A stretch of 64,000 nucleotides of DNA from a virus: positions 56,667 through 120,666 of the IMG/VR virus record IMGVR_UViG_3300034102_002101; one strand, written 5' to 3'. Position 1 is the first letter of the stretch, and every line of letters starts with the position of its first letter. Below the pieces are notes generated by a model. It was not told where the DNA came from. It worked only from the letters and a program-made list of their open reading frames with translations, and ran no database searches. The position numbers and the translations under genes were made by a program. This document shows, piece after piece, positions 23,562-56,839 of this stretch.

Positions 23562-25586
23562 ATGAATAAATATGGGAAGACACTAAATTTAAAGAATGTA
23601 AAAGCGGATATAATAGATACCGACCCGTTTTCCTCATATTTTGTCGTTTCGGAATTACCTAATATATTAACGTCAGGAAAAAATGGATTTTCGATAAACG
23701 GATCGAATTTACTGAAAGTTGGTTCTGAGGTGTATATAGAGGTATTGAACGTAAATGGTTCAAACATATACGTTGAAGTGGCAAAAAATTCATCCAAGGT
23801 ATCGTATAAGGAAGGTTCTAGTATAGTATACTCAATACAAATATACGCCGATACCCCAGTTGGTGTCGGTATTATATATCTAGTTGGTACGGATACTTAT
23901 GGGAAATTAGTAAAGTGGAAGAAAAATATAGAGATAAATCCATCTATACAAAACAAGTCGAAGGTTAGATTTTATAATAAACCATCGATACAAGTTACTC
24001 CGTTCATAAATGTAACATCAGAAACAGATGTTATTGAGACAAATATAAATGGAACATTTAAAGGAATACCAGTTAAGCCTATGGCTGGATATCCTATTAG
24101 CTACATAGACCAAGGTAGGGAAGAGTATGAATATATCATAGATATTACTTCTGGTGGGAGTCTCACCAGTGATATGGTCGGAAGAACAATAACGTTGAAT
24201 GGGAATGATTACATAATACAAGAGGTAATAAACTCATCTAAATTAAAAATTGCTTACCCAATAACAAAAAATGGAAAAATATCTAGTGATTCTGGTGACT
24301 TAAGTATCGAGTATTACCCATATAATAATCCAACAACGATATCTAGCAACGCATTTAAAAAGATAGGTACTGCCGAAATATTATTCAGAAACATAGAAAC
24401 ATTTACTGGTAAAATTTATAGATATAAAATATATAGATCCAGTATAAATGCACCATACGATTCTGAATGTATATCTACAGGAATTTTTTATGCTACCGAG
24501 CATATATATGATTCAGAGACGCCGTATAGACACCAAAGCGTTCTTGGTAAAATATTAAACTCCGAGTTTTTAGATCAACATTGGTTTGTCAGTAATCCGT
24601 CTACTGATCTATCACACTCACCAGACAAGATGATAGATTCATTCGAGACTAATGGATTCGAAAACTCGACAAGAAAATCCGACTACATTATTGTAAAGTC
24701 CGGTGTAAGTGGTAGTGTTGATTATGTTCCATATGATAATGTTACTTATATGGATAGATCTAGTGATGTATACAATTCAAATTTTATTAGGTTATATAAA
24801 AATATCGAATATATATTTTCCGCCGACGTAATAAAAACTAGTAACACGCACGATACTTCTGGTATAGAATTCTATCTAAAGAGTTCTTTCAGTAACGCAA
24901 TGAACAATAAAATTTGCGATTCTACTGGTTTGAAATTATTCGAATTAAGTGATAATAAAACTGGTACGATATACTATGGAAAAGTTAATGGATCATTTAT
25001 ATTAGAGGAGGATTGTTATGGTACGTTAGTTATATATCCATACAGGTCCAATTACGTATTATCTAATATTAGCATAAAACCATATACCGATTATTCATAT
25101 GGACCGGACATATTTTCTATCCGAGTTCCATTTGACGTTAGAGCTAAGAACGAAGGAAATAAAATAACCTGTGAGTTACTGGATGTTGATAATAAGTTAG
25201 TAATCGGTGAATTATCTACGATACAATATTTTGATCCATATGGAGTAACGTATCCGTTTAACGTAATCAAAGATAACGCCGAATTAATACTAGACTTAGC
25301 CGATATAGAAATGGAGATGGGCGTGTTATCTGGCAGTTTATATAGTACCAGCCAATCGTTAATATCGTTGTCCTCCGAATTTTATTCTACTTCAGAAAGC
25401 TTCGAAAGTAGATTCATACAATTAAGCGAGTCTGTTTCCCGTATTAGTGGATCTACTGTCAGTGGGTCTTTTGCTATAGCAACTACGACAACCCTCGGAT
25501 CGGTGTCAGTAGGAAATGGATTGAAAATAAACGTGAATGGTTCACTTTCACTCGACTATGCCGCGATTACTTGGGGAGGAGTTTAA
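23562..25586 (+). CDS. Putative virion/tail structural protein
   Basis: Beta-rich; ATATTTATA motif upstream; C-terminal ATTTTLGSVSVGNGLKI tail-fibre-like motif. Confidence 0.55.
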   Translation: MNKYGKTLNLKNVKADIIDTDPFSSYFVVSELPNILTSGKNGFSINGSNLLKVGSEVYIEVLNVNGSNIYVEVAKNSSKVSYKEGSSIVYSIQIYADTPVGVGIIYLVGTDTYGKLVKWKKNIEINPSIQNKSKVRFYNKPSIQVTPFINVTSETDVIETNINGTFKGIPVKPMAGYPISYIDQGREEYEYIIDITSGGSLTSDMVGRTITLNGNDYIIQEVINSSKLKIAYPITKNGKISSDSGDLSIEYYPYNNPTTISSNAFKKIGTAEILFRNIETFTGKIYRYKIYRSSINAPYDSECISTGIFYATEHIYDSETPYRHQSVLGKILNSEFLDQHWFVSNPSTDLSHSPDKMIDSFETNGFENSTRKSDYIIVKSGVSGSVDYVPYDNVTYMDRSSDVYNSNFIRLYKNIEYIFSADVIKTSNTHDTSGIEFYLKSSFSNAMNNKICDSTGLKLFELSDNKTGTIYYGKVNGSFILEEDCYGTLVIYPYRSNYVLSNISIKPYTDYSYGPDIFSIRVPFDVRAKNEGNKITCELLDVDNKLVIGELSTIQYFDPYGVTYPFNVIKDNAELILDLADIEMEMGVLSGSLYSTSQSLISLSSEFYSTSESFESRFIQLSESVSRISGSTVSGSFAIATTTTLGSVSVGNGLKINVNGSLSLDYAAITWGGV

Positions 25587-26842
25587 ATCCTCTTCCAATT
25601 ATAGAAATCATCGTTATTTATTAACTTATTTCTATAATCTTCTAATTTACTTATGTGTATCTTGAATATATCGTATTCAAAATCACCAACTTCTCCGGAA
25701 TCAGATAATATCTGAGATAAGTTTCTGATGAAATCAAATTGATCGTGTCTGGTTAATTGTCTCGCATCGAAACTGATAATTATATCGGTCGTCAATAGAC
25801 CGAGCGTTTCTTCCATAATCTTGTCTGATAGATTGAATATAGTATTTGGTTGTTCGTTCTTGATGTACTCTTTTGATATCTTGGAATTAGTTAAGTGCAT
25901 TTGGTCACACCATGGCTCCAGAAGTGCCAATAGTTGAGCGTTACAATGATTTATATTCAAACCTATGTCGTAGCGTGGATGTGTGATTGGTTTCATTAAA
26001 TCATCATGTAGAACGTCAGTATGCCATTTTCTCCACCAATCTCTGAATTTAATATTTCTTAGTTTCGTGTATTCTTCTGAATCCTTTGGTTTGTACCATT
26101 TAGATCCATCCGGTAAATCAACCACTCTTTCTATTTCGAGTCTACCTTTGAACCTAGAACCTCTGCAAGTCATATGATAGACAAAAGAATCTCTCGATTG
26201 AATTATTCGTAAGTTGTTCAATACGAACCGATTAAAAATATCCGAATCCTCCAATTCCATTGGCGCGAACAATTTTTTATCATGTCCTCCTATTTTTTTG
26301 AAGTCTGATACGTGCATTCCCCATGGAGCGAATATACCTTCTGTCGTCTTGTTTTTATACTCGATTTCACTTATCTCAACAAACTGATCGAATTCTTTCT
26401 TTTTAAATTCTTCTGGCTCTAATCCGAGATTTTTTGTCATTTTTTCGATTCCTGATGGGTGGAGATTTGGTTCTATCCTCGTCGCAGACACCACAATTCC
26501 AACTTCCATATATTTCAACATATTCCTAATATAATTTGGTGATGCTATCATGTCAGCATGAAATATACTAAACACTTCCTTCGTTGCTAATTCGGCTCCT
26601 ACATCGTATAAAACAGTATGTCCCTTCCTTTCCGGTCCCTCGTTTCTATAAATTATAACATTCTCGTCTAACTTCTTTGTCTCATTCATCCATTCCCAAG
26701 TTCCATCGGTAGATGCATCATCCAGCAGAATTATCTCATGTTTCTCTGCTACATTATCACGTATACTGTTATACGCCGATTTTAAATATTTTAGATTATT
26801 CCTACTAGGGATGACGATTGAAATTATTGTGTGTTTATCCAT
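25583..26842 (-). CDS. Glycosyltransferase family 2
   Basis: ISIVIPSRN, LLDDASTDGT, HADM, EDSD. Confidence 0.85.
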   Translation of the reverse strand: MDKHTIISIVIPSRNNLKYLKSAYNSIRDNVAEKHEIILLDDASTDGTWEWMNETKKLDENVIIYRNEGPERKGHTVLYDVGAELATKEVFSIFHADMIASPNYIRNMLKYMEVGIVVSATRIEPNLHPSGIEKMTKNLGLEPEEFKKKEFDQFVEISEIEYKNKTTEGIFAPWGMHVSDFKKIGGHDKKLFAPMELEDSDIFNRFVLNNLRIIQSRDSFVYHMTCRGSRFKGRLEIERVVDLPDGSKWYKPKDSEEYTKLRNIKFRDWWRKWHTDVLHDDLMKPITHPRYDIGLNINHCNAQLLALLEPWCDQMHLTNSKISKEYIKNEQPNTIFNLSDKIMEETLGLLTTDIIISFDARQLTRHDQFDFIRNLSQILSDSGEVGDFEYDIFKIHISKLEDYRNKLINNDDFYNWKRI

Positions 26843-26925
26843 GTTATACCAACAATATACCGATAAATTAAAAAGTCAATCATTTTTGTTGACATCCACC
26901 TTAGATTGTGCTTTCTTTTAGAAAG

Positions 26926-28161
26926 ATGAAACAAATTAAAACTATTTTCAAATTAATAAAAGTTGATTCCAAGGAAAATTCAAATAAATTCTGGAATGGG
27001 ATTATTTATGACGATGGTTCTGCTCGCACGGAATGGGGGCGGGTCGGATATTCTTCACAGTCAAAAGATTTCTCGTGTTCATTGGTAATAGAAAAAAAGA
27101 AAAATGAGAAGTTAAAGGATGGTTATGAAGAACTAAAAATTGTATTAGAAGGAGTTTCTAATCTATTACCAGCATTGGATCAAAAGAAATCACTACTAGA
27201 AATCGCAAAGAAGCAAATAAAAACATCGTCTTCCAAGTTGGACGACCTGATTCAGAGACTGGTGAAGAGTAATATCCATAATATTACGAGTTCCACCCAA
27301 TTGAAGTTTGATTCGTCAACTGGATTGTTCCAGACCCCACTAGGAGTCGTTTTACCGGAAGCAATAACAGATGCACGCGACTTGTTGGTAGAGATTAAAC
27401 AAAATTACCAAAGTCCAGCTAAATTAGAAAAACTTGTCGTGAAATACCTAAGACTTATTCCACATGATATCGGAATGAAGTTTAATGTTAGAAACATTTT
27501 CCCAGACGAGAAACAAATCGAAAAGGAAAATGATATTCTTGACTCATTGAATGCCTCTTATGATGCTATTCAAAATAACTCAAATTCTAAGTTATTTAAG
27601 AAGTTAGAAGAAAAAATATTTGACATTGAAATTGACATATTACAGGACAAAGCAGAATTCGATAGAATCTCTAAGTGGTTTTATCGTAGCAACCACGCGA
27701 CTCATGGATACAAGAATGTAAAAATTGCTAATTGCTATAAATTGAATACGGGATTTGACTTCGATGGTAAGCTAGGAAACATAACCGAAGTATTCCATTC
27801 AACTGGAGAAGCAAATCTATTGAGCATTTTAAAGTCCGGTCTTCGTGTATCTCCACCAGCTACTGCTTATATTAGTGGATTATTGTATAGTTCTGGTGTG
27901 TATGGTGCTGTCGATAGCTCAAAATCCCTACAATATACATTCGGTAGATTCGGTGGGAGTGTTGGTAGTTCTGGTTGGTGCTTTATTGCCGAATTTGCGA
28001 TGGGAAGACAATATAATATAACTACGTATGGGGGTAAATTACCGATTGGATATGATTCGATTTATGCAAAAAAAGAATTGACGGGGCTTAGATTTGATGA
28101 ATTGATCGTCCCACAGTCAACTCAAGTAAAATTAAAATATTTGCTAGAAGTAACAAAATAA
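26926..28161 (+). CDS. WGR-domain PARP-family ADP-ribosyltransferase
   Basis: NSNKFW...EWGRVG (WGR), helical regulatory-like YLRLIPH, catalytic FHST...SILKSGL, GVYGA..SKS..Y, DELIV (H-Y-E triad). Confidence 0.8.
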   Translation: MKQIKTIFKLIKVDSKENSNKFWNGIIYDDGSARTEWGRVGYSSQSKDFSCSLVIEKKKNEKLKDGYEELKIVLEGVSNLLPALDQKKSLLEIAKKQIKTSSSKLDDLIQRLVKSNIHNITSSTQLKFDSSTGLFQTPLGVVLPEAITDARDLLVEIKQNYQSPAKLEKLVVKYLRLIPHDIGMKFNVRNIFPDEKQIEKENDILDSLNASYDAIQNNSNSKLFKKLEEKIFDIEIDILQDKAEFDRISKWFYRSNHATHGYKNVKIANCYKLNTGFDFDGKLGNITEVFHSTGEANLLSILKSGLRVSPPATAYISGLLYSSGVYGAVDSSKSLQYTFGRFGGSVGSSGWCFIAEFAMGRQYNITTYGGKLPIGYDSIYAKKELTGLRFDELIVPQSTQVKLKYLLEVTK

Positions 28162-28172
28162 ATAAAAATAAA

Positions 28173-28706
28173 ATGAAAACATTAAAAGATGTAGTGGAAA
28201 TGATCGTAAATAGCATGAATATGCCGAATTTTTCAGCATATGACATTACCGGATTGATTAGGCATCATGTTGAATGGGCTAAGTCCAGAGAGAAGTTTGA
28301 CATTGCACTATCCCCACCAAATTCACAACATTGGTACAATATCAAACACGAAGATGTCCGTGCTATTATTGTTGATATGTATAAGTCAGGTAAATTGACT
28401 AGAAAGCCAAATGGTGATTATTATACATATAATATTGCAACTCCATTGGTTTCCACACATAAGATTGCCTCCGTACCAACAAAGCAAGTTAAGGTTGTGG
28501 CAAACAAAAGTACAAGTAACGATCTTGCTGATTTAGTTTATAACTTTTTGCTCAGAAGAAAGTCTCCAGCAATTGTTTCACTGAAACAGATCCAGAGCGC
28601 ATTGAAGCGTCGTGGGAATTTCACATGCAAAGAAATTAGTGAGATTAAGCACCCACTATTGCGGCTGGTTGTTAATCCAAGTCTATCGAAGTCATACTTC
28701 CAATAA
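28173..28706 (+). CDS. Hypothetical protein, possibly winged-helix
   Basis: Co-transcribed with PARP; basic. Confidence 0.5.
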   Translation: MKTLKDVVEMIVNSMNMPNFSAYDITGLIRHHVEWAKSREKFDIALSPPNSQHWYNIKHEDVRAIIVDMYKSGKLTRKPNGDYYTYNIATPLVSTHKIASVPTKQVKVVANKSTSNDLADLVYNFLLRRKSPAIVSLKQIQSALKRRGNFTCKEISEIKHPLLRLVVNPSLSKSYFQ

Positions 28707-28710
28707 AAGA

Positions 28711-28741
28711 AAAACCCCCGATTTAAATCGGGGGTTTTTTG
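28711..28741. terminator. Bidirectional intrinsic terminator
   Basis: AAAACCCCCGATT-TA-AATCGGGGGTTTTT between convergent genes. Confidence 0.8.
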
Positions 28742-29254
28742 TTACTTAATTTCGGCGATCAATATATCGTCTTCTTCTATTCCACGCTCATATGAAATAG
28801 AATACTCAGGATTAATTTCCAATACTTTGGATATCAATTGTTCCAATGTAGTTGTAAAGTGACCGTTCTTATATAGTCGAATATCATCAATATAAATTAT
28901 ATGATTTTTTATATGGTGATTTTTTATAGCTTCCAATTCAAAAATAATCGGATCTTCGACCACACCATTTCCAGTATCTCCACCGGAAAAATGACCATCC
29001 AACCAAAACGTTATGGGTTCGTTTATTTCTTCTATTGCCCCATATAGGCAATTAGCAGCATCACCTTTTAGAATTGATACTCTGATATCTCCACGAAACC
29101 TATCAACACAGATATCAGAAAACTTATCCGTCAATTCTATGGATATGACGTTATTAAATCCAGAATCCAATGCTTGTTGGATTCCGTCACCCATAAAGCA
29201 TCCGGTTTCAACGAACACGTTGTTAACCTTCTTAAAAGGCGTTGGTTTAGGCAT
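28742..29254 (-). CDS. Class I SAM methyltransferase-like protein
   Basis: FVETGCFMGDG, ISIE, GDA, FWLDGH, IDD. Confidence 0.6.
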   Translation of the reverse strand: MPKPTPFKKVNNVFVETGCFMGDGIQQALDSGFNNVISIELTDKFSDICVDRFRGDIRVSILKGDAANCLYGAIEEINEPITFWLDGHFSGGDTGNGVVEDPIIFELEAIKNHHIKNHIIYIDDIRLYKNGHFTTTLEQLISKVLEINPEYSISYERGIEEDDILIAEIK

Positions 29255-29255
29255 A

Positions 29256-29894
29256 TTAGTTTATCTTTCTTGCCATTATATCACCTTCACCGAATGGATG
29301 TCCATCAGCAGCATAAAATTCAAATTCAAATCCATTATCAGTCAAGAACTTCTCGATTGATTCTTTGGATGAATGTCCTTTATAATATGCAACTTGTGCG
29401 GCTTCTAGGTGAATATATTTTACATTCTTGATGATCTGTTCAAAACCTTCAAGTACAGCTAGTTCATGTCCCTGTACATCCATCCATACAACTAATGATG
29501 TTGTGTCTAATTGTGGATTTTCTGACATAAATGCATTTACTGTAGTCGCATCAACTTCTATTTTGCTCTTATCTTGACTACCAAACGGAACATGGATTGG
29601 TTCCAGTATTGATGAGCATCCAATATTCCCATCAGTTACCCAAAAATCAACTTTTCCTACATAATTGCTAAGTGCTAAATTATGGACTTTTATATTTGTA
29701 TATCTGCGGCTCTTGTCTTCACAGATATTATACTGATTTGGTGTTGGTTCAAATGCTGCAATTTCACATCCACGCCAAATAGCGTCAAATTCTTCTGACT
29801 GGTCTAAGTCTCTGGAACCAATATCCAATATTAGCGATGGGACGAATGCTGGTTCGTATTTTTGTATGTAATTTATAAATTTTGATATAAGCAT
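29256..29894 (-). CDS. FkbM-family methyltransferase
   Basis: LDIGS, AFEP, ALSN, WMDVQGHELAVLEG. Confidence 0.8.
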   Translation of the reverse strand: MLISKFINYIQKYEPAFVPSLILDIGSRDLDQSEEFDAIWRGCEIAAFEPTPNQYNICEDKSRRYTNIKVHNLALSNYVGKVDFWVTDGNIGCSSILEPIHVPFGSQDKSKIEVDATTVNAFMSENPQLDTTSLVVWMDVQGHELAVLEGFEQIIKNVKYIHLEAAQVAYYKGHSSKESIEKFLTDNGFEFEFYAADGHPFGEGDIMARKIN

Positions 29895-29899
29895 ATTTG

Positions 29900-30514
29900 T
29901 TATCCTAAGTATGTTGATTTGTGATATTCGTAATGTTCGTTTGTTAAATTATACTTTTGCCAATAAAAGTCAATATTATTTTCTGGTAATTTATTAATAC
30001 AATAATCGAAGTATTCTTTCGATTCTTCGAAAGACACTATATTCGTTCCGTGTTTCTTATTATAATTATTTAGTAGTATTCGCTCGGCAAATTCTCCATT
30101 ATGTTCATCTATTGTCCAGAAATCTATTAGATCGTCTGTTTTTCCATACATCAGATAGTCAACCATATAACCATCTACGTGCCATGTGTAAAATATTATC
30201 TTACCCGTATACATTTCTTCAAGTATACTTGCGAATTCCTCTATTTTAGGTATAGAAAAATCAGTTCTGATCTTTAATGAAAATTCATATCCCATTAATT
30301 TAGCAAGAGCCAATCCACATAAAGTAGTATTAGCTTGTCTATTTATATTTCCTACTCCACCGTCAGCGACATCTTGACATTGGTATATATTAATTATATT
30401 ATCGTAGTTATAATCATTGGTAAATATTATATGGTGTGCCTTTGTATAATTTGTTACTAAATTATACAAATTTCCTTTCACTGGTCCTTGTATGACTACT
30501 GCGGATTTATTCAA
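29900..30514 (-). CDS. WavE-like glycan-synthesis protein
   Basis: AVVIQGP, NINRQ..TT..GL, LKIRTD, DYLMYG. Confidence 0.55.
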   Translation of the reverse strand: MNKSAVVIQGPVKGNLYNLVTNYTKAHHIIFTNDYNYDNIINIYQCQDVADGGVGNINRQANTTLCGLALAKLMGYEFSLKIRTDFSIPKIEEFASILEEMYTGKIIFYTWHVDGYMVDYLMYGKTDDLIDFWTIDEHNGEFAERILLNNYNKKHGTNIVSFEESKEYFDYCINKLPENNIDFYWQKYNLTNEHYEYHKSTYLG

Positions 30515-31718
30515 CTTTTAATCCCCACTTTTTAATAGCCGCTTGATATTCGATCCCATAATCCTTATCTATAGATTGGCGCATTGCCTTGGTTCCAGCC
30601 AAAGTGCCGAGTGGATGGGAGCTTAATGCGCCACCAACATTCGCCATCCAGTCAGAGTGTCCAACTGTTTTTATTATGTATTCAATCAAACCAGGATGCA
30701 TTCCGCAACTCAAAGCAGCAACGCTATTCTGTTTAGTTAGTGTATCTATTGACTTTAATGTATTTTCCGCATCATCCAAATAACCACCGATCATACCTGC
30801 ATGTAGAGTATCGCAACCAGACATAGATACAATTTTAAATAGTAGATTTTGTGATATGTGATAATCGTGAGTCGGGTGAGTCAGTAGACGATCACCGCTC
30901 TTCTGATAATGTAATAAAATCGGTAAGTCTAATTGGCGTATTGATTTGTATATACCAAACCCACAGTGGAAATTAGTATGTACTCCATTTATACCGTTCT
31001 GTTCATGTAGCTTTACTATTCTGTCTAGAAGGAACGGGGAGTCCGCATTAATAGATACACAATAAAATACATTAGATTTCTGGCTTCTGATATAATTCAT
31101 CACCAAGTCAGTTCTCTTGTATACATCACAATGTTTCGGATTGCTCAATATTTCGTCTTCTTTTATGAAGTTACACCCACCATCAATTAATTGCTTAACT
31201 AAATCTAAATGACGTTCTGGGGATAGTCCTATCTTTGGTTTAACTATCCCACCGAACAATGGTTTTCTGCTATCTACGTTACATATCTTACGCATACCAG
31301 ATAGACCAATCTTTGGTCCGAGCAATACCTTTTCCATGTTAGTGGTGAATGTTATATCATTCAAATAGCATTTCTTAATTATATCTATATCCATCTGCCC
31401 ACCCATACATTGAACCAATAATTGAGAAATTCCATCGGTAGCGAAATCTATATTATTCTCCGGAAATGCGATAAACACTATTCCTTCTGTTTTTCCCTTT
31501 AATTCATCTTCATCAGCAAGAATTAAACAACTATGATCGTCTATTAGTTCCTGCGTTTCAAATTCAGATCTAGCGGATGGATTACCTATCGATTGACCGA
31601 TTGCCAAATTCCATGCCGCTTCTCTTAAAGTTGATGATGACTTTAAGTAGTACTCACAAATGTAATGTGTATCTTTTAATGTTCCGGTATTTATGTTTTT
31701 AAAAATATTGTAATTCAT
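30507..31718 (-). CDS. RuBisCO-like protein (form IV)
   Basis: GQSIG, GPKIGL.G.R, GGIVKPKIGL, FIKEDE, SCGMHP, GGA..SHP.G..AG.KA.RQ. Confidence 0.85.
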   Translation of the reverse strand: MNYNIFKNINTGTLKDTHYICEYYLKSSSTLREAAWNLAIGQSIGNPSARSEFETQELIDDHSCLILADEDELKGKTEGIVFIAFPENNIDFATDGISQLLVQCMGGQMDIDIIKKCYLNDITFTTNMEKVLLGPKIGLSGMRKICNVDSRKPLFGGIVKPKIGLSPERHLDLVKQLIDGGCNFIKEDEILSNPKHCDVYKRTDLVMNYIRSQKSNVFYCVSINADSPFLLDRIVKLHEQNGINGVHTNFHCGFGIYKSIRQLDLPILLHYQKSGDRLLTHPTHDYHISQNLLFKIVSMSGCDTLHAGMIGGYLDDAENTLKSIDTLTKQNSVAALSCGMHPGLIEYIIKTVGHSDWMANVGGALSSHPLGTLAGTKAMRQSIDKDYGIEYQAAIKKWGLKVE

Positions 31719-31719
31719 A

Positions 31720-32040
31720 TTATACTTCGTATTTATCTCCGACGATTGATGGGATCTTTACTACTATTAATTTAGAGTCTTCTACTGGAGTCGCAAATAC
31801 TACCTCATTTGGGTGAAGAATAAATACTTGACCAGCCAAAATCGTTTCACTGTTTATTATCATTTTCCCCTCGACTAGTAAATTTATTTCTGTTGCTATC
31901 TTGTGATAATGTGGGGTTATTACCTCGTCCTTATGGTGGATTTTATAGCAAACTTCCGCTTTATCGGTTTTGAATGCTGTTGGTAAAAAATCACCAACAA
32001 ACCAATTTCCCTTCATTTCATTTAAATTAAGTATTGTCAT
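31720..32040 (-). CDS. Cupin-domain protein
   Basis: HYHKIATEINL..EG.M; GNWFVGDF.P. Confidence 0.7.
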   Translation of the reverse strand: MTILNLNEMKGNWFVGDFLPTAFKTDKAEVCYKIHHKDEVITPHYHKIATEINLLVEGKMIINSETILAGQVFILHPNEVVFATPVEDSKLIVVKIPSIVGDKYEV

Positions 32041-32042
32041 TT

Positions 32043-32753
32043 TTATAGATTTCTTAGAGCTTTATATGATTCGTAATCCTCGGGAGTTCCTATTGGATAA
32101 TGGAGGTTAAATTGAAACGGCATTAACTTCTTACCACATGCTATCAAATTATTGAACGTTTCTGACAAGTAATATTCCCCATTAACTGTTTTTCCACTGG
32201 CAATCAATTCTTCTGTTGATTTTACGAATAAAATGCCAGACTTCCAGTAATGAAAACCGTTGGTTGCTGTGTTGCTTATTACTTGCTTCTCTCGCAACTC
32301 AATTATTTCGTTCTTTTCGTTTACTTTTACGTAGCTATTTTTTGGACTAGTGGAATGGAATGTTCCTAAGCATCCATCTAAATTATTGGTTTCACAATAA
32401 CTTAAAAATAGTTCCATGTTTAGATCTTCTATTATCTGGTCACAGTTCGTTACTATTAATGGAACATCGTTATTTACATATTCGCGTGCAAGCAACGCTG
32501 AACATGCTGGTCCAGATGGAACATAATCAATCTCGATAACATTTACGCCCAATAGACACAGTTGATCTTTGGTAATTTGATTCTTATTAATTATAATTGT
32601 ATAATCAGCATTTTCATATCTCAAATTCCATAATACTGCATGTATCATTGATGTGCGCCCTATCGGAAGAAGAGCCTTTGGTACTGTATATCCAGCATCA
32701 AAAAACCTTTGACTTTTTCCTGCCATTGGTATCACTATGTTTATTTTACTCAT
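32043..32753 (-). CDS. Sugar-phosphate nucleotidyltransferase (GT-A fold)
   Basis: IVIPMAGKSQRF..AGY..PK.L, NCDQ, EK..IS..AT.G, GTPED. Confidence 0.8.
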   Translation of the reverse strand: MSKINIVIPMAGKSQRFFDAGYTVPKALLPIGRTSMIHAVLWNLRYENADYTIIINKNQITKDQLCLLGVNVIEIDYVPSGPACSALLAREYVNNDVPLIVTNCDQIIEDLNMELFLSYCETNNLDGCLGTFHSTSPKNSYVKVNEKNEIIELREKQVISNTATNGFHYWKSGILFVKSTEELIASGKTVNGEYYLSETFNNLIACGKKLMPFQFNLHYPIGTPEDYESYKALRNL

Positions 32754-33184
32754 TTTTTAAATTTTTCTATGTAATCTGAACATATACCTATACTTCCAGT
32801 TGGTATATTAAACCCATGAAGCTCCGGTAATACACATATTCCCCCACTCGAATCTAATCCGGTATAATACCAAGAATGTCCATAACTAGTAATAACTACT
32901 GGTTCTGTTGTATGATAAAATACGTGGTATCGTTGTTCTGATAGTATCTTAAATGCTTCTAAATTTTTCGCATGAATCCATATGTTTTCTCCCCAACCAT
33001 CTAGCGTAGATTGACTTATTCCGTAGTCTGGTTTGTCATGACCTAACCAGAAAGTTCTGTTTTTATACCACACATCGATCTCGACAATATATCCTTTGGA
33101 TATCGCCGAGCTTATGTATATTGGCTCGTTCTCCCAATTTTCGAGTCTACCGTTAATGTTTCCTCTATGTGAAATTAAGATCAT
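32750..33184 (-). CDS. Glycerophosphodiester phosphodiesterase-like protein
   Basis: ISHRGN...EN, VEIDVW, LGHD, WIHAKN, GICSD. Confidence 0.65.
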   Translation of the reverse strand: MILISHRGNINGRLENWENEPIYISSAISKGYIVEIDVWYKNRTFWLGHDKPDYGISQSTLDGWGENIWIHAKNLEAFKILSEQRYHVFYHTTEPVVITSYGHSWYYTGLDSSGGICVLPELHGFNIPTGSIGICSDYIEKFKK

Positions 33185-33795
33185 TTTACTTTCTGGTAGA
33201 ACGCATCTCCCCAACCATGGTTGGTGTCGTGCATATGTGTGCGTTTAAATCCGAATTGACTCAAATATTTATCGATACCATCCACAGTGACGCACCCCTC
33301 ATATAATTCCTCGTAATTGACCTCGGTATATACATAATCAATATCGTTAGTCAGTAGTTTTTCCGCCCCACACAAAACTTTATATTCTGCTCCTTGAACG
33401 TCTATAAAAAGAGCGTTAAAGTTTCCTTCTTCGTTTACATAAAATTCATCGAGGGTAACGCAGTCTACTTCTATCTGTTTCTCATAATTTATGTGTGGAT
33501 AATAATTTTTGTGATTCTTGAGATTTAAGATAGACGAAGATGAACCATCATTATTTGATACGTTAAATTTTATCTTACCATTAAAGTCAGAAACAGCATG
33601 GTTATAACCATCTTGATTAGGATACTGCGATAATCTATCCATCAATCTTTTATATATCTCTGGGTTAGCTTCATGCCAAATAACAAATTCGGCACCCATC
33701 TGCTGGTAAAAGTCACGCTCCTGTCCTTCATGCGCTCCGACATGAATGACTCCACGCAGTTTTCCATGTAATTCCTTTACTAGATTTATTTCCAT
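33181..33795 (-). CDS. FkbM-family methyltransferase
   Basis: IHVGAHEGQE, EANP, IDVQGAEYKVL.G, WGDAFY. Confidence 0.8.
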   Translation of the reverse strand: MEINLVKELHGKLRGVIHVGAHEGQERDFYQQMGAEFVIWHEANPEIYKRLMDRLSQYPNQDGYNHAVSDFNGKIKFNVSNNDGSSSSILNLKNHKNYYPHINYEKQIEVDCVTLDEFYVNEEGNFNALFIDVQGAEYKVLCGAEKLLTNDIDYVYTEVNYEELYEGCVTVDGIDKYLSQFGFKRTHMHDTNHGWGDAFYQKVK

Positions 33796-33798
33796 AAT

Positions 33799-34467
33799 TT
33801 ATAATGTTCCACGATCACTAAAATCAATATTATATTCTTGTTGTAGTAAAGTCAACTCTTTTCCATATTCACTCACGTTCCATTTGCCTTTATTTATTGC
33901 GGTGGCTATATAGGGCCAAACATTGGAATCGTAATGGAATAATCCGCGTTTATCCCCTACCCATTCTTTTGGTAAAAATTTACTTTCATATTCTCCTATA
34001 GAACATTGGGATAAGAAACCTTCTTGCCTAATCGAGTCTATTTGATATTTTTCGTAAAATGATATGAACTTATCTATGCTATGTACCGCAGCTTGCATAC
34101 AATATTCCGTTCCTCCGCTTTTTATCAATTTAACGAAACCAGTCTTATTAGAATTTATTTCTTCTATCGCCGTATGAATTGCGTTTATATCAATGTCGGA
34201 GTATAAAATAAAATCTTCTTGTGAGTATATGAAATATTCATATCCATTCGCTTTAAGAAATTCAAGTACATGCAACCATTGGTTTGAATATGGTTCGTTG
34301 TTATCATACTTGAAACAGTAATGTCTACCAAAATCATTGATATCTTCATTGCATAACCAGAATGATGGTAATTGATTAGCATGTTTATCGAGTCTATCGA
34401 AATACGGTTTCCACAAATCTTTGCAATTTGTGTGTGAATATGTAATTATACAAAGTTTATTATCCAT
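33799..34467 (-). CDS. Putative glycosyltransferase-like protein
   Basis: DLW..YF, YSQEDF, TAI.KGKW; within glycan cluster. Confidence 0.5.
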   Translation of the reverse strand: MDNKLCIITYSHTNCKDLWKPYFDRLDKHANQLPSFWLCNEDINDFGRHYCFKYDNNEPYSNQWLHVLEFLKANGYEYFIYSQEDFILYSDIDINAIHTAIEEINSNKTGFVKLIKSGGTEYCMQAAVHSIDKFISFYEKYQIDSIRQEGFLSQCSIGEYESKFLPKEWVGDKRGLFHYDSNVWPYIATAINKGKWNVSEYGKELTLLQQEYNIDFSDRGTL

Positions 34468-35199
34468 TTAATTTATCTCCATTTCGCAGATTTGTTTATT
34501 GTAAAAACTTCCTTCTATCATGTATGGTCTAGTTTTTCTCCCATGCACAAATTCATCTAGCGCACTACCTACGTCAATGTATTGATTTCGTGGGTTGAGT
34601 TTCCATAATAAGTATATTATGGCTTCACTTAGTGGTCCGACTGATATGAAAAAGGTTTGTCCTGATGTATTATTAAAGGACTCTCCTAAAATTTGCATTA
34701 TTTGTCCCTTATTTTCTTCCCACACGTTAACACAATCATTTCCGAATGACATATAATCACTTACATTAAACGGATATTTTTTATTTTCTCCGTTTTCATT
34801 AGCGATTATAGTAATGTCTTTCTTTAGCGTTGTCAGTCTATCGATAAATCTATTGTAGTTTCCATTTATCCATAGATTCGCAAACGTTACATATTCTCTA
34901 TCTTGCTTTATGTTATTCAATAGCCATTGTTTATCTTCGGTATTGGATGAGTCACATGATATTGCATAATAATAATATGGATCAACACAACTTAAAGATT
35001 CACGTAGATCTTTTCCCAATTTTGTAATTCCTGTTGGTGCAGACCATCTATCAACATCTGTTGCTTGGCTTCCTCCACCAATTGGGATTCCTTTCATTAA
35101 ACATATTTCACCATCCGCATATCTAGCATGTGCGAATGGCAAATTAGATTCTATTCTATTCCACGCATTATCGAAATCCTCTTTAAATAACTTTTTCAT
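34468..35199 (-). CDS. GT-D-fold (DUF1792-like) glycosyltransferase
   Basis: ARYADGE and SVGP...IDVGSALD motifs. Confidence 0.6.
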   Translation of the reverse strand: MKKLFKEDFDNAWNRIESNLPFAHARYADGEICLMKGIPIGGGSQATDVDRWSAPTGITKLGKDLRESLSCVDPYYYYAISCDSSNTEDKQWLLNNIKQDREYVTFANLWINGNYNRFIDRLTTLKKDITIIANENGENKKYPFNVSDYMSFGNDCVNVWEENKGQIMQILGESFNNTSGQTFFISVGPLSEAIIYLLWKLNPRNQYIDVGSALDEFVHGRKTRPYMIEGSFYNKQICEMEIN

Positions 35200-36181
35200 T
35201 CTTTAATATTTCTAGTATTTTCTGTGCGCTATTACCATCACCATAAGGACAATGATTCATCATTGGTGTAGGATTCTTTATGTGCTCATAAAACAAATCC
35301 TTTAGGTTTTCTATGGTTGTTAGAAAGCTGGTATTTCCAACCGATTCTGGTCTTTCTGTTGCATCTCTACACACTAATATCTTCTTATTTAGAAATGAAC
35401 ATTCCTCCTGCAATCCACCACTATCAGAAATAACCAGCGAACAAGACAACAATTCGTTTATCATTTCGTCATATGGTAACGGTTCAATAACATTTACATT
35501 ACAAAGTATTTCTCTGTGTTTTCTTACATTTGGGTTTGGGTGGATAGGAAATACAAAATTATAATCCAAAAATTCTGTTGCTAGTTCATTTATTTTCTTG
35601 AACCACTCGTCGATCTTATCATGATTTTCTCTTCTGTGTAAGGTAATTAAAATCTTTTTCGCCAATGTTGTTCTTTCCCGCATATTGACCAATCCATCTA
35701 ATCCAGTATTACCAACAACATATATAGATTCATATTTTATATTTTCTCTTAGTAAATTTATTATATTATCCGTTGTTGGGCATAGATGTATATCTGCTAA
35801 TTTTGTTATTAAGCATCGGTTCATTTCTTCTGGATACGGATTGTTGAAATCTCCGCTTCTGAGCCCAGCTTCTAAATGTATTACTTTTATTTTTCTGTGA
35901 TATGCCGTCAATGCCATACCAAATGCGGAAGAAGTATCTCCCTGAACTAATACGTGGGTTATGCCATCAAATATATAACCACGATTTAAGCACGATTGTA
36001 TCACTGAATCTAACCTATTATCACCGTCAGATATCTCCAACTTATAATCAAAATCTACACCGAATAGTAGAGTCGTATGCTGTCCCGTAAAAACTGTTTT
36101 ATATGACTCTCTAGGTAAAATCTTCAATAGTGAAGACACCTTTATCATCTCGGGGCGTGTGCCTATTGCTATAAGTATCAT
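35183..36181 (-). CDS. wecB: UDP-N-acetylglucosamine 2-epimerase (non-hydrolysing)
   Basis: GTRPEMIK, TGQH, QGDT, HLEAGLRS, PYPEEMNR, TLHRREN, DSGGLQEE, TERPE. Confidence 0.92.
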   Translation of the reverse strand: MILIAIGTRPEMIKVSSLLKILPRESYKTVFTGQHTTLLFGVDFDYKLEISDGDNRLDSVIQSCLNRGYIFDGITHVLVQGDTSSAFGMALTAYHRKIKVIHLEAGLRSGDFNNPYPEEMNRCLITKLADIHLCPTTDNIINLLRENIKYESIYVVGNTGLDGLVNMRERTTLAKKILITLHRRENHDKIDEWFKKINELATEFLDYNFVFPIHPNPNVRKHREILCNVNVIEPLPYDEMINELLSCSLVISDSGGLQEECSFLNKKILVCRDATERPESVGNTSFLTTIENLKDLFYEHIKNPTPMMNHCPYGDGNSAQKILEILKNEKVI

Positions 36182-36957
36182 ACGTTTTCCTTTATCAACT
36201 TCCAACCAGCAATTCTCTGATCTACGAATGCTTGGTTCATCAAATGTTTAAATGGTACCCCTTCCGGTGATCTTTGGTTGGTTTCCCACATTGAATTATT
36301 ATCGCACGCATACTTGATATGTGCTATATTGCACCACATGTCTTTATTATCAATTGGGTGTGGAGGAACGTATGTTTTTATGTTACCATATTTTTGTAAC
36401 ATATGACTAAAATGCATATCCTCTTTACATATAAAATATTTTGGATCTGGTAATTCTCTCCAATACATACTTAACCAATCTCGCCTAAAAAACCAGGAAT
36501 GTCCTACGAAATCTACCTCGGTAATTTCATTGGATTGTCCACCATCTACCCAACCGAAACGTGTATAATGCTCGTAATATGAACTTCGTTCTGGTGGGTT
36601 TGGTTGTGAGTATAATAGACCTACTCCACCCATTAAACCATTCTTAATGTTTATAGAATTTATACAGTTTTCCAACCACAGTGGACCTGGAACCATATCA
36701 TCGTCAAATACACAGACATATTCGGTTCTAGAATTTAGTGCATATGCAAATCTCGCCCATACTCCGAGATTTTCATTTGATATGGCGCTGCTTACTTTTT
36801 CTGTGATACCGTAGTTAACATCACCTTTATCCGGATAATTGTACCACAACATTATTTTTTTTGGTACTATACTTCCATTGTTCAATGCGTTAACTTGTTC
36901 ATCTAGACATTCCCCGCGACGGAACCCATTCAAAATTACGGTTACTTCTTTGTTCAT
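36178..36957 (-). CDS. Glycosyltransferase family 2-like
   Basis: VFDDD DxD motif, EDMHFS. Confidence 0.7.
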   Translation of the reverse strand: MNKEVTVILNGFRRGECLDEQVNALNNGSIVPKKIMLWYNYPDKGDVNYGITEKVSSAISNENLGVWARFAYALNSRTEYVCVFDDDMVPGPLWLENCINSINIKNGLMGGVGLLYSQPNPPERSSYYEHYTRFGWVDGGQSNEITEVDFVGHSWFFRRDWLSMYWRELPDPKYFICKEDMHFSHMLQKYGNIKTYVPPHPIDNKDMWCNIAHIKYACDNNSMWETNQRSPEGVPFKHLMNQAFVDQRIAGWKLIKENV

Positions 36958-37973
36958 AAATTATTTAATATAGTAAACATCTTTTCCTTCCAAATGTCAA
37001 TACTAAAATAATTTTTATAATTTGTTTTTGCGTTTGTGCTGCATTCCTCGTAGAATCCAACATCATCCACTAACCTCTTGGCCAATTTCCTCGCAGTTTT
37101 TATATCTTCAACATCAACAGATAACTCCGGAAATATTAATTTTTGAGTATCCATCTTATAATTTCCTATACATGGTATTCCAAAGTATCCACAATTCTTC
37201 GAAAAAGTGCCAGCAGCCACCGTTGGCATCAAATGTATCGCATATCTATATGTTGATAATTCTCTCATCCATTCTAACCACGACATTCTTGGTAAGTGAT
37301 TTAAATCATCTATAAGACCTTCATCTTCTCTTTTTGAGTGAGAATCCATTACATGCTTAGAACTCTCGTAAAACTCGTCGGAAACCATATAGGAATTGAA
37401 ACCACCATAAAACTTACTAAAATTTCCACCGATCATTACTTTATTATAAGTTCTTGAGTCAGGTATAATATCTGTTAACAGATCTTCTATCATCAAACTC
37501 GATATCACATTTACCGGTTTATTTGGAAACATTCCTTCGTAATATGGTTTATCTGATTCATTGTGGCAAAATATGGAATCAAACGAATGAACGGTGTTAT
37601 ACCAATTAAATTGATCTCTCACAGTATAATCCATTGGCCATGAACTTGGTCCTTCCTGTATAAAATGTATTTTTTTGTTATTTTGTTTTCTTAATTGTCC
37701 AACAAAATCGAATTCCAATAATTTAGATACTGGATTAATTCCATCAATTACCTTACATCCTTCTGCACTAAGAAATACCCGCCCTTTCGGTATTATTACG
37801 AAAACATGATCGTAATTGATTATATTAATCAACTGGTTAAATTGGTAATGTGTTGAGTCTAACGCTTGCTGCCATGCAATTTCCGTTCGTGCGTTATTGA
37901 ATTTTTCTGGATATTTTCCACTAAATGGCGACTCGGTAATAAATGCAACTTTTCCAAAGTTATAGGATTTCAT
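36954..37973 (-). CDS. Putative GT-B glycosyltransferase
   Basis: AGTF...CGYFGIPCIG C-terminal GT-B motif. Confidence 0.55.
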   Translation of the reverse strand: MKSYNFGKVAFITESPFSGKYPEKFNNARTEIAWQQALDSTHYQFNQLINIINYDHVFVIIPKGRVFLSAEGCKVIDGINPVSKLLEFDFVGQLRKQNNKKIHFIQEGPSSWPMDYTVRDQFNWYNTVHSFDSIFCHNESDKPYYEGMFPNKPVNVISSLMIEDLLTDIIPDSRTYNKVMIGGNFSKFYGGFNSYMVSDEFYESSKHVMDSHSKREDEGLIDDLNHLPRMSWLEWMRELSTYRYAIHLMPTVAAGTFSKNCGYFGIPCIGNYKMDTQKLIFPELSVDVEDIKTARKLAKRLVDDVGFYEECSTNAKTNYKNYFSIDIWKEKMFTILNNL

Positions 37974-38010
37974 ATATATACATATATATAGAAATCGAAA
38001 TAACGCAATA

Positions 38011-38040
38011 AAAAACCACCTTTTACGGTGGTTTTGTTTT
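38011..38040 (-). terminator. Intrinsic terminator
   Basis: AAAACCACC-TTTTAC-GGTGGTTTT hairpin with U-tracts. Confidence 0.65.
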
Positions 38041-38044
38041 TGTA

Positions 38045-38614: not shown

Positions 38615-38638
38615 AATGTTTATAAGTATTGCTAACCT

Positions 38639-39316: not shown

Positions 39317-39317
39317 C

Positions 39318-41002: not shown

Positions 41003-41073
41003 ATTTTAAATTTTTTATTGTGTATATCTTGTATATTATTCTTAATATAAATGGTAAAACTTATTTAGTCAAC

Positions 41074-41773: not shown

Positions 41774-41787
41774 ACGATTATTGATTC

Positions 41788-42368: not shown

Positions 42369-42372
42369 ATTA

Positions 42373-56631: not shown

Positions 56632-56636
56632 GTAAG

Positions 56637-56726: not shown

Positions 56727-56734
56727 ATAAATAA

Positions 56735-56836: not shown

Positions 56837-56839
56837 TTC

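What the first reader, a model, noticed from the sequence alone, without database searches (positions are those of the whole stretch)
29900..33184. RuBisCO-like protein embedded in a phage sugar-nucleotide module
Seen: a tightly coupled run of GDPD-like, nucleotidyltransferase, cupin, RLP and WavE-like genes within a glycosyltransferase island. The RLP keeps K175/K177 (KPK) and the carbamylation motif (KEDE) but has Q at the H294 position (LHYQK) and Y at loop-6 K334 (GGYL). Established: form IV RLPs perform enolisation-based isomerase, epimerase or (trans)carboxylase chemistry on sugar phosphates, not CO2 fixation. Inference: this is a biosynthetic route to an unusual ketose or branched sugar donor for a phage-made glycan, a different role from methionine salvage or sugar catabolism.
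Basis: partly seen in the sequence, partly recalled or inferred. Interest (0 to 1): 0.78.

Follow-up and report, generated by a model that had tools for sequence, protein, structure and literature searches.

The report
Phage RuBisCO-like enzyme in sugar-activation cassette
A lake-water T4-like phage carries an intact RuBisCO relative that cannot fix CO2 and sits, tightly coupled, with a sugar-activating enzyme, a small cupin and a miniature phosphodiesterase inside a glycan gene island, which points to an untested sugar-building job for the RuBisCO fold.

Summary
Window 29900-33184 (minus strand) is a translationally coupled run: mini-GDPD, NDP-sugar-pyrophosphorylase-type nucleotidyltransferase (NTase), metal cupin, RuBisCO-like protein (RLP), short WavE-like protein. 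It lies in an 18-kb glycosyltransferase/methyltransferase island of a T4-like phage. The RLP keeps KPK, KEDE and both phosphate sites. It has G, G, Q, Y at E60, N123, H294, K334, a signature shared by 22 of 22 clade representatives. It does not group with MtnW, OiaX-like or form III proteins. The neighbourhood is conserved: in 80 viral loci, NTase is present in 77, mini-GDPD in 70, cupin in 68, all four in 58. RLP-NTase, RLP-NTase-cupin, NTase-cupin and GDPD-RLP fusions exist. New here: anchoring on the mini-GDPD shows a much wider phage module (at least 590 contigs), mostly HAD-NTase plus mini-GDPD without RLP, so RLP plus cupin looks like an add-on branch. The clade itself is in print (Jaffe et al. 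2019, function unclear). This scan has also noted the same cassette on about 30 other genomes. Chemistry and product remain untested. Best reading: an enolising isomerase/epimerase feeding a nucleotide-activated glycan unit.

The parts
32750..33184 (-). Miniature GDPD-type phosphodiesterase, 144 aa from the ATG. It is a stripped-down GDPD barrel that keeps the HRG / EN / ExD / HD catalytic motifs.
   Evidence: invariant H6 R7 E18 N19 E35 D37 H49 D50 H71 K73 in 14 of 14 sequences; pLDDT 93.6; Z 10.3 to GDPD 1o1z; GDPD-family chains fill ranks 1-22. No Pfam hit at E <= 0.01. phrog_34507.
32043..32753 (-). Stand-alone nucleotidyltransferase of the NDP-sugar pyrophosphorylase type, 236 aa.
   Evidence: PF00483 E 5.5e-9, above the cut-off. 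phrog_3980. The nearest solved structure is 4evw, an NDP-sugar pyrophosphorylase of unassigned specificity, E 1.9e-9. Invariant G-x-G-x-R, K26, D105, E155-K156, D226 in 17 rows.
31720..32040 (-). Small single-domain metal cupin, 106 aa.
   Evidence: Invariant H35, H44, H46, E51, G58 in 16 of 16 sequences. AF2 pLDDT 88. The best Foldseek hits are small cupins, including archaeal phosphomannose isomerases 7zvm/7zvy and KdgF. phrog_24762. No specific relation to the Bacillus MtnD cupin (hhalign probability 4.5%).
30507..31718 (-). RuBisCO-like protein, 403 aa. The Mg-carbamate centre and both phosphate sites are kept; the CO2-addition residues are replaced.
   Evidence: clade signature G/N/P/G/Q/Y/C at E60/T65/W66/N123/H294/K334/G380; separate clade, SH-aLRT 99.
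29900..30514 (-). Short WavE-superfamily protein, 204 aa, TTG start overlapping the RLP stop by 8 nt. Candidate transferase for the activated unit.
   Evidence: PF07507 E 1e-3, below the cut-off. Its own short family hits it at 1.1e-35. That family aligns to a cluster holding true WavE proteins at hhalign E 1.8e-57. True WavE (E 1e-52 and 1e-46) sits next to the cassette in the two CPR loci.
33181..33795 (-). FkbM-family methyltransferase, overlapping the mini-GDPD start by 4 nt.
   Evidence: PF05050 E 3.1e-20; junction.
29256..29894 (-). Second FkbM-family methyltransferase, 5 nt downstream of the WavE-like gene.
   Evidence: PF05050 E 4.7e-17; junction.
25583..43905 (-). The surrounding glycan island: GT2 genes (25583-26842, 36178-36957, 38639-39337), GT1 genes (39701-41002, 42373-43905), WecB (35183-36205), and several genes with no family hit.
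   Evidence: (TIGR00236 wecB, 239 bits against a cut-off of 210).

Best explanation
The run is a biosynthetic cassette that prepares a nucleotide-activated sugar (or sugar-like phosphate) unit for a glycan.

Shown:
- Five intact, translationally coupled genes in a phage glycan island.
- The RLP keeps the carbamylated-Lys/Asp/Glu Mg2+ centre (K201, D203, E204), K175, K177, H327 and the glycine/serine phosphate clamps (S379, G381, G403, G404).
- The RLP has lost E60, N123, H294 and K334, which RuBisCO needs to add CO2.
- The RLP is linked to the NTase and the cupin by conserved neighbourhood and by fusion into single polypeptides.

Inferred:
- The RLP binds a phosphorylated (possibly doubly anionic) keto sugar. 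It makes a Mg2+-stabilised enediolate and reprotonates it, acting as an isomerase or epimerase, with K175 and the clade-specific Y at loop 6 as acid/base candidates.
- The cupin does a metal-dependent aldose-ketose type isomerisation, as the cupin domain does in type II PMI/GMP enzymes.
- The NTase couples the product to an NMP.
- A WavE-superfamily enzyme puts the unit on a glycan, which FkbM-type enzymes may methylate.
- The mini-GDPD belongs to the NTase side of the pathway, not to the RLP. In most phage loci it sits directly beside a HAD(beta-phosphoglucomutase-like)-NTase with no RLP. So RLP plus cupin is best read as an alternative or extra feeder branch into a widespread NTase / mini-GDPD / WavE-like module.

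The phosphodiester that the mini-GDPD cuts or forms is unknown.
For: - Coupling and intact genes.
- Active site: (22 of 22 representatives keep K175, K177, K201, D203, E204, S379, G381, G403; 22 of 22 have G at E60, Q at H294, Y at K334).
- Neighbourhood, RLP-anchored: 80 of 185 IMG/VR contigs were examined. NTase in 77 of 80, mini-GDPD in 70 of 80, cupin in 68 of 80, all four in 58 of 80. Gene order is shuffled.
- Neighbourhood, cupin-anchored: 80 of 492 contigs examined; RLP in 62 of 80, NTase in 77 of 80.
- Fusions: RLP-NTase-cupin in P0121/P0122. RLP-NTase in P0124, whose 90% cluster has 128 members, and an Atlas cluster of 82 members at 667 aa. NTase-cupin ORFs in 7 of 80 loci and in L017. 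GDPD-RLP in P0158.
- Glycan context: the window island. Partner families are SDR/GDP-mannose dehydratase in 34 of 80 loci, methyltransferases in 27 and 19 of 80, WecB in 11 of 80, and a WavE-superfamily protein in 53 of 80.
- A cellular CPR locus sits on a 372-kb contig that also carries ribosomal protein L2. Its order is GT2, GT1, GT1, WavE, mini-GDPD, NTase, cupin, RLP, IMPase-like, RmlC, GT2, Bac_transf.
- Mini-GDPD partners: 80 of at least 590 contigs examined. NTase in 65 of 80, of which 59 are ~455-aa HAD-NTase directly adjacent. RLP in only 5 of 80.
Against: - No substrate, product or activity has been measured for any member.
- The cupin fold and its 3-His/1-Glu-type site fit dioxygenases and lyases as well as isomerases.
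- The NTase's nearest solved relative (4evw) has no assigned specificity.
- No kinase or mutase that would hand a 1-phosphate to the NTase is conserved in the core cassette. A HAD domain is present in only 13 of 80 RLP loci.
- 22 of 80 RLP loci lack one or more partners within 8 kb.
- The role given to the mini-GDPD is a guess.
- The WavE-like assignment in the window is below Pfam's threshold.
- No GenBank phage record (0 of 50,697) holds a relative, so no isolate links the cassette to a glycan.
- The three anchored scans used different patterns, and each looked only at its best 80 loci.
Confidence: 0.55

Rival explanations
1. Salvage or catabolic auxiliary metabolism. The RLP and cupin rework a host pentose phosphate, in the style of methylthioribulose/5-deoxyribulose salvage (MtnW plus MtnD, or the Rhodospirillum RLP plus cupin shunt, the latter recalled) or of an AMP/ribose-1,5-bisphosphate route. 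This would feed phage nucleotide or carbon needs, with the mini-GDPD acting as the phosphoesterase.
For: An RLP with a phosphoesterase and a 3-His/1-Glu cupin mirrors the enolase, phosphatase, dioxygenase logic of the Bacillus mtnW-mtnX-mtnB-cupin operon seen in L104. The best HMM and PDB scores of the RLP are to form III enzymes of the nucleotide-salvage pathway. The HAD domains of partner NTases resemble beta-PGM and CbbY-type sugar-bisphosphate phosphatases.
Against: The RLP is far below the MtnW, OiaX and form III cut-offs (109/409, 95/700, 141/497 bits) and lies in a separate clade. The cupin is unrelated to MtnD beyond the fold. No kinase, phosphorylase, MtnA/B or IF-2B-type isomerase is among the conserved partners. 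The conserved partners are an NTase, glycosyltransferases, a WavE-like protein and methyltransferases. The catabolic RLPs found on plasmids sit by sugar transporters and four-carbon acid sugar kinases, a quite different context.
Confidence: 0.13
2. A donor for phage DNA hypermodification. The cassette makes an activated sugar that the T4-like phage attaches to modified bases, as arabinosyl- or glucosyl-hmC phages do (recalled knowledge).
For: The carrier is a T4-like myovirus: baseplate wedge, gp46-like SbcC, Dda helicase. Related loci carry gp32, a RecA-family protein (PF00154) and tail sheath. Sugar-nucleotide genes in such phages can serve DNA modification.
Against: The same cassette sits in a cellular polysaccharide locus with Bac_transf, GT2/GT1, WavE and RmlC, and on contigs labelled as giant-virus MAGs. 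In the window it is embedded among GT2/GT1 genes, WecB and O-methyltransferase-type genes. No base-modifying enzyme was seen among the conserved partners. I did not search the rest of the phage record for hydroxymethylases.
Confidence: 0.1
3. The RLP is a non-catalytic scaffold or regulator, or a decaying passenger gene. On this reading the module works through the NTase and mini-GDPD alone.
For: The NTase plus mini-GDPD module is far more common without the RLP (RLP in 5 of 80 GDPD-anchored loci), so the RLP is dispensable for the core function.
Against: The Mg2+ centre and the phosphate clamps are invariant in 22 of 22 representatives, at identities down to 29-37%. The gene is intact in all loci that are not cut by a contig end. 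It is fused in frame to catalytic partners.
Confidence: 0.05

Closest known systems
'Form IV-like' RuBisCO-related proteins of phages and Beckwithbacteria (Jaffe, Castelle, Dupont, Banfield 2019, Mol Biol Evol 36:435, PMC6389311). I read the abstract and the passages on phage found with 'find'.
   Same: These are divergent RLPs on Myoviridae-type phage contigs from many environments that cluster with a few CPR sequences. Catalytic residues are only partly kept, and the function is stated to be unclear. My data fit: 185 IMG/VR contigs, CPR MAG loci, and a separate clade.
   Different: The passages I read say nothing about an NTase/cupin/GDPD neighbourhood, fusions or a glycan role. I could not compare sequences directly with their set.
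MtnW/YkrW 2,3-diketo-5-methylthiopentyl-1-phosphate enolase (methionine salvage)
   Same: A RuBisCO-superfamily enzyme that enolises a keto sugar phosphate on the same Mg-carbamate centre. In Bacillus it sits in an operon with a phosphatase and a cupin.
   Different: The window RLP scores 109 bits against a cut-off of 409 and lies in a different clade. It keeps K177 where MtnW-like rows mostly have C, and has Q/Y where they have H/K at positions 294/334. No mtn genes are nearby. The cupin is unrelated to MtnD.
Catabolic RLPs of acid-sugar/apiose pathways (OiaX-type), next to four-carbon acid sugar kinases
   Same: Non-carboxylating RLPs that act on phosphorylated keto sugars.
   Different: OiaX model score is 95 against a cut-off of 700. 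The named plasmid examples from Roseibium and Haloarcula fall with the OiaX-like clade, not with the window. Their neighbours are transporters and kinases, not NTases or glycosyltransferases.
Type II phosphomannose isomerase / GDP-mannose pyrophosphorylase (NTase fused to a cupin; recalled knowledge)
   Same: The domain logic matches the NTase-cupin fusions found here. The cupin model resembles small archaeal phosphomannose isomerases.
   Different: There is no Pfam MannoseP_isomer hit. The NTase matches PF00483 only weakly. An RLP and a mini-GDPD have no counterpart in that pathway.
Glycerophosphodiester phosphodiesterases (GDPD, PF03009)
   Same: Fold and catalytic His/Arg/Glu/Asp/His motif.
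   Different: 144 aa against about 220-250 aa. No Pfam hit at E <= 0.01. The position of the third metal ligand appears to hold His (H71), by my reading of the motif. The substrate is unknown.

Membership tests
RuBisCO large-subunit superfamily (PF00016) | Match to the catalytic-domain model above Pfam's gathering score | tested here: met
   106.8 bits against 30.1, E 1.6e-30. 98 PDB RuBisCO/RLP sequences match at E <= 1e-3.
Carboxylating RuBisCO (forms I-III) | Complete catalytic set: E60, N123, K175, K177, K201, D203, E204, H294, K334 | tested here: not met
   G, G, Q and Y stand at E60, N123, H294 and K334. K175, K177, K201, D203 and E204 are kept. rubisco_III scores 141 bits against a cut-off of 497.
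MtnW / YkrW enolase | Score above the NCBIfam equivalog cut-off, placement in the clade with named MtnW, and mtn operon context | tested here: not met
   NF007095 109/409 and TIGR03332 90/514 bits. B. velezensis MtnW falls in another starred clade. No mtn genes lie in the window island.
OiaX-type apiose-pathway RLP | Score above the NF042437 cut-off, and a kinase/transporter context | tested here: not met
   95 bits against 700. The context differs (against 60).
Phage 'IV-like' RLP clade of Jaffe et al. 2019 | Encoded on myovirus-type phage contigs; clusters with rare CPR sequences; outside the named RLP clades | tested here: met
   Only 1 of 401 sampled genomes of the CPR locus's phylum carries it. 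A direct sequence comparison with their set was not possible (supplements closed).
NTP_transferase (PF00483), sugar-phosphate nucleotidyltransferases | Model match above the cut-off and an intact G-x-G-x-R / Lys / Asp catalytic set | tested here: met
   36.4 bits against 21.2. Invariant residues. The mapping of these residues to RmlA roles is recalled, not tested. Substrate specificity cannot be tested with these tools.
GDPD (PF03009) | Match to the family model | tested here: not met
   No Pfam hit at E <= 0.01. The profile against the PDB matches only the N-terminal motif, E 0.006.
GDPD (PF03009) | GDPD barrel fold with the HR / EN / ExD / HD catalytic residues | tested here: met
   VIA Z 10.3, rmsd 3.2, 137 residues aligned to 1o1z; GDPD-family chains fill ranks 1-22. 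The motif is invariant. It works like a GDPD, but in a much reduced form.
Cupin superfamily | Double-stranded beta-helix fold and the G(x)5HxH(x)3-4E(x)6G motif | tested here: met
   No Pfam Cupin model hit at E <= 0.01 for the window protein. Cupin_2 hits the fused P0122 at E 9e-4.
WavE (PF07507) | Match above Pfam's gathering score | tested here: not met
   18.8 bits against 27. BLAST to a true WavE gives E 0.09. It is related only through intermediate profiles.

The most novel reading that the evidence does not exclude
The RLP uses its enediolate not merely to shuffle a proton but to build or rearrange a carbon skeleton. In place of CO2, the carbanion would attack an internal carbonyl, or a substituent would migrate. 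The product would be a branched-chain or carbocyclic sugar phosphate, which the fused NTase then activates. That would mean a nucleotide sugar unknown to glycobiology, and the first anabolic, glycan-building role for the RuBisCO superfamily, spread mainly by viruses.
Probability: 0.12. Interest if true: 0.9.

Novelty: new variant of a known kind. Interest (0 to 1): 0.7.

Why it matters
All RuBisCO-superfamily members with an assigned function either fix CO2 or work in salvage and catabolism (my knowledge of the field). A clade wired and even fused to a nucleotidyltransferase in glycan loci would add a biosynthetic role. It may also add a new activated sugar.

The clade is common in lake and marine phages (185 IMG/VR contigs), so it may shape phage or host surface glycans at ecological scale.

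The triple fusion proteins (P0121, P0122) give a one-polypeptide entry point for biochemistry. A clade member in a named bacterium, Azospirillum oleiclasticum, may allow genetics if its neighbours match.

RLP plus cupin appears to plug into a much wider HAD-NTase / mini-GDPD phage module. This narrows the question to what that module activates and what extra input the RLP provides.

Tried and rejected
- Complex prediction with two RLP copies plus the mini-GDPD: no verdict (score 0.00, controls not folded). No conclusion on binding is drawn.
- The look-up of sequencing runs: no RNA holder is listed. The full-length holder is a lake-water run that may be the source.
- tblastn of the RLP against 50,697 GenBank phage records: no match.
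- tblastn against plasmids: only relatives at 27% identity or less. With the Azospirillum protein as query, no Azospirillum record was found, so its gene context could not be seen.
- Paper searches with 0 hits: 'rubisco-like' + nucleotidyltransferase + cupin; 'rubisco-like protein' + polysaccharide biosynthesis + gene cluster; 'rubisco-like protein' + viral + auxiliary metabolic.
- 'rubisco-like' + 'nucleotide sugar' gave 4 listed papers, none relevant by title or abstract start.
- Searches for WavE literature were swamped by the word 'wave', or gave 2 papers that I did not open.
- So 'not in print' rests on these searches of the held library only. Supplements were closed.
- The N-terminal 322 aa of P0154 has no PDB sequence match.
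- True WavE has no PDB sequence match.
- Earlier notes of this scan claim SAR11, Legionella and DPANN carriers. Contigs labelled GVMAG do carry the cassette.
Family 4, the ~360-aa NTase variants and several partner families therefore remain unannotated.
- The tree is a quick LG+G4 search with SH-aLRT support only, midpoint-drawn. It shows separation, not rooting or direction of transfer. Rows shorter than 340 aa or longer than 480 aa were left out, except five fused proteins cut to their RLP part.

Full report
**What is there.** The window is part of an IMG/VR virus record of 120,666 bases. It has a baseplate wedge protein, a gp46-like SbcC, a Dda-type helicase and a block of 22 tRNA genes, with G+C near 0.34. 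This is the make-up of a T4-like myovirus.

From 33184 down to 29900 on the minus strand lie five intact genes:
- a 144-aa GDPD-like protein
- a 236-aa nucleotidyltransferase (NTase)
- a 106-aa cupin
- a 403-aa RuBisCO-like protein (RLP)
- a 204-aa WavE-like protein

Their junctions are -4, +2, +1 and -8 nt. An FkbM methyltransferase overlaps the first gene by 4 nt, and a second FkbM gene follows 5 nt after the last. Around them, from 25583 to 43905, are three Pfam GT2 hits (one marginal), two GT1 hits and a WecB epimerase. The one weak call is 'WavE-like', at 18.8 bits against a cut-off of 27.

**The RLP.** PF00016 matches at E 1.6e-30. The HMMER alignment to T. kodakarensis RuBisCO and a 105-row alignment give the following picture.
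- Kept: K175, K177, K201, D203, E204, H327, S379, G381, G403, G404.
- Changed: E60 to G, T65 to N, W66 to P, N123 to G, H294 to Q, R295 to K, K334 to Y, G380 to C.

The pattern is not a quirk of this gene. In the 22 representatives of its clade, G60, Q294, Y334 and the whole Mg2+ centre are present in 22 of 22, and C380 in 20 of 22. Form III-like rows keep the canonical residues. MtnW-like rows have H294, mostly K334, and mostly C at position 177.

So the metal-enolate machinery and two anion sites are under selection, while the CO2-addition residues are gone. This fits an enolising enzyme on a phosphorylated keto sugar.

**Which RLP.** No NCBIfam equivalog is approached: rubisco_III 141/497 bits, MtnW 109/409, OiaX 95/700. 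A search of 1.84 billion cluster representatives gave 815 hits at E <= 1e-3. In a quick maximum-likelihood tree of 105 rows, the window falls in a 22-row clade with SH-aLRT 99. I labelled other clades with NCBIfam scores of 20 chosen rows. I then added three named proteins from annotated plasmids:
- B. velezensis MtnW, in its mtnK/W/X/B/cupin operon
- a Roseibium RLP next to a four-carbon acid sugar kinase
- a Haloarcula RLP next to the same kind of kinase

MtnW falls in the MtnW-like clade. The two catabolic RLPs fall with the OiaX-like row. The window's clade, now 23 rows with an Azospirillum protein, stays together at 99. The tree is unrooted in substance and says nothing about origin.

**Conserved neighbourhood.** A single-sequence scan gave 17 viral and 3 MAG loci. 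tblastn with the window's proteins found NTase in 19 of 20, cupin in 18 of 20 and GDPD-like in 16 of 20, in several gene orders. An alignment-based scan found 185 IMG/VR contigs with a relative. In the best 80 (70 distinct RLP sequences, five contigs labelled as giant-virus MAGs), HMMs built from the first set found the following within 8 kb:
- NTase in 77
- GDPD-like in 70
- cupin in 68
- all four in 58

Further partners are a WavE-superfamily protein in 53 of 80 loci. This counts the short family that includes the window's gene, together with a ~260-aa 'family 4' related to it at hhalign probability 90%. Others are SDR/GDP-mannose-dehydratase-type enzymes in 34, two kinds of methyltransferase in 27 and 19, HAD-NTase fusions in 13 and WecB in 11. 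The second refutation condition is not met either.

**Fusions.** Searching longer proteins gave P0121 (813 aa) and P0122 (817 aa), which are RLP-NTase-cupin in one chain. P0121 is 50% identical to the window's RLP, 35% to its NTase (E 2e-30) and 37% to its cupin (E 2e-18). Other fusions:
- P0124 (667 aa) is RLP-NTase. Its 90% cluster has 128 members. The ESM Atlas lists an 82-member cluster of the same architecture.
- NTase-cupin single ORFs occur in L017 and in 7 of the 80 loci.
- P0158, a truncated protein, is GDPD-like followed by the RLP N-terminus (n = 1).

These fusions are the strongest evidence that the RLP, NTase and cupin act on one pathway.

**Cells as well as viruses.** L019 lies on a 372-kb contig of a 1.2-Mb genome that also carries ribosomal protein L2, so it is cellular. 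There the cassette is flanked by GT2, GT1, a full WavE (E 1e-52), an IMPase-family gene, RmlC, GT2 and an initiating Bac_transf. L018, from a Saccharibacteria MAG, is similar. Yet only 1 of 401 sampled genomes of that phylum, the centre itself, has the RLP at E <= 1e-50, so carriage in cells is sporadic. A 35%-identical member with the full signature is on record from Azospirillum oleiclasticum. I could not see its neighbours.

**The partners.**
- Mini-GDPD: it folds with pLDDT 93.6. GDPD and GDPD-type PLD chains take ranks 1-22 of a search of 48,161 chains (Z 10.3 to 7.5, then a drop to 6.5). The catalytic His-Arg, Glu-Asn, Glu-x-Asp and His-Asp motifs are invariant. It is about 60% of normal GDPD length and is missed by Pfam.
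- Cupin: it has an invariant HxHx4E motif plus H35. It resembles small metal cupins of many functions: archaeal phosphomannose isomerases, KdgF, quercetinase, Pac13. It is not specifically like the Bacillus MtnD cupin.
- NTase: its closest solved relative is 4evw, an uncharacterised NDP-sugar pyrophosphorylase. Its catalytic motif is intact.

I ran the census the other way round.
In the best 80, only 5 have an RLP and 15 a cupin. But 65 have an NTase, 59 of them as a ~455-aa HAD-NTase fusion lying directly beside the mini-GDPD, and 38 have family 4. The HAD part is most like beta-phosphoglucomutase, sugar-phosphate phosphatases and CbbY.
- Anchoring on the cupin finds 492 contigs. In the best 80, RLP is present in 62 and NTase in 77.

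So the mini-GDPD is a partner of the NTase, not of the RLP. The RLP, with the cupin, is an optional branch on a wider phage module of NTase, mini-GDPD and a WavE-like protein. The three scans differ in patterns and in which loci rank best, so the ratios are rough.

**Mechanism, with what is shown and what is inferred.**
- Shown: intact coupled genes, a conserved remodelled active site, linkage and fusion to an NTase and a cupin, and a glycan-locus context in phages and in a cell.
- Inferred: the RLP enolises a phosphorylated keto sugar and returns an isomer or epimer. The cupin isomerises further. The NTase adds the nucleotide. A WavE-like enzyme transfers the unit, and methyltransferases decorate it. 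The mini-GDPD handles a phosphodiester on the NTase side.

I put this at 0.55. Rivals are salvage or catabolism (0.13), a DNA-modification donor (0.10) and a non-catalytic RLP (0.05). The remainder is chemistry I have not thought of.

**Known or new.** Phage 'IV-like' RLPs, about 80 sequences, some on Myoviridae and grouping with Beckwithbacteria, were reported in 2019 with the function left open (PMC6389311; abstract and phage passages read). My searches of the held library found no paper that ties an RLP to a nucleotidyltransferase, nucleotide sugars or polysaccharide clusters. Supplements were closed.

This scan has already noted the same cassette on other DNA. Look-alike stretches are in 52 windows of 30 genomes, and several follow-up reports reach the same reading. 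I treat those as leads:
- Their counts of about 190 viral contigs, and of fusions, agree with what I measured.
- Their SAR11, Legionella and DPANN carriers I could not test.

I rate this a new variant of a known kind: a known, function-less clade placed in a specific and unexpected pathway context.

Noticed in passing
window 56544-63900 (minus strand), especially 62110-62201: A block of 22 tRNA genes. ARAGORN reports one of them as 'tRNA-???' with a four-base anticodon (aaat).
   Followed up: no
L107-L186, e.g. L159:503-1870 and the adjacent mini-GDPD: A ~455-aa HAD(beta-phosphoglucomutase-like)-NTase fusion lies directly beside a mini-GDPD in 59 of 80 loci, mostly without any RLP. The mini-GDPD family is on at least 590 IMG/VR contigs. 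This is a widespread phage module of unknown product.
   Followed up: partly
L073:9631-10413 and 52 other members ('family 4', ~260 aa): An unannotated protein present in 40 of 80 RLP loci, 38 of 80 GDPD-anchored loci and 51 of 80 cupin-anchored loci, often adjacent to the mini-GDPD. It has only a weak DUF7796 hit, and hhalign probability 90% to the short WavE-like family.
   Followed up: partly
L212, L218-L220, L223, L226, L227, L238, L244, L262 and others: Cupin loci without an RLP carry an NTase-family ORF of about 355-366 aa in addition to a HAD-NTase.
   Followed up: no
P0154 (487 aa, truncated): A 322-aa N-terminal domain with no PDB sequence match, and no hit to my cassette HMMs, is fused in front of an RLP of this clade.
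   Followed up: partly
P0123 (721 aa), P0166 (726 aa), P0183 (742 aa): More distant, form III-like RuBisCO homologues are fused to another domain. For P0123 this is PF01008 (IF-2B / ribose-1,5-bisphosphate isomerase family). They are about 27-30% identical to the window RLP.
   Followed up: no
window 46505-47440 (minus strand): GIY-YIG plus NUMOD3 homing-endonuclease-type gene.
   Followed up: no
window 28742-29254 (minus strand) and 33799-35199, 36954-37973: Several island genes (170, 222, 243 and 339 aa) have no Pfam, NCBIfam or PHROG hit. The 222-aa and 243-aa genes recur next to the cassette in other phage loci.
   Followed up: partly
G002:C10:187702-188078: The ribosomal protein L2 gene of the CPR genome reads in three pieces with internal stops, which suggests frameshift errors in that assembly.
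   Followed up: no
L018:1166-2926 (minus strand): A B12-binding radical SAM enzyme lies two genes from the cassette in the Saccharibacteria MAG locus.
   Followed up: no
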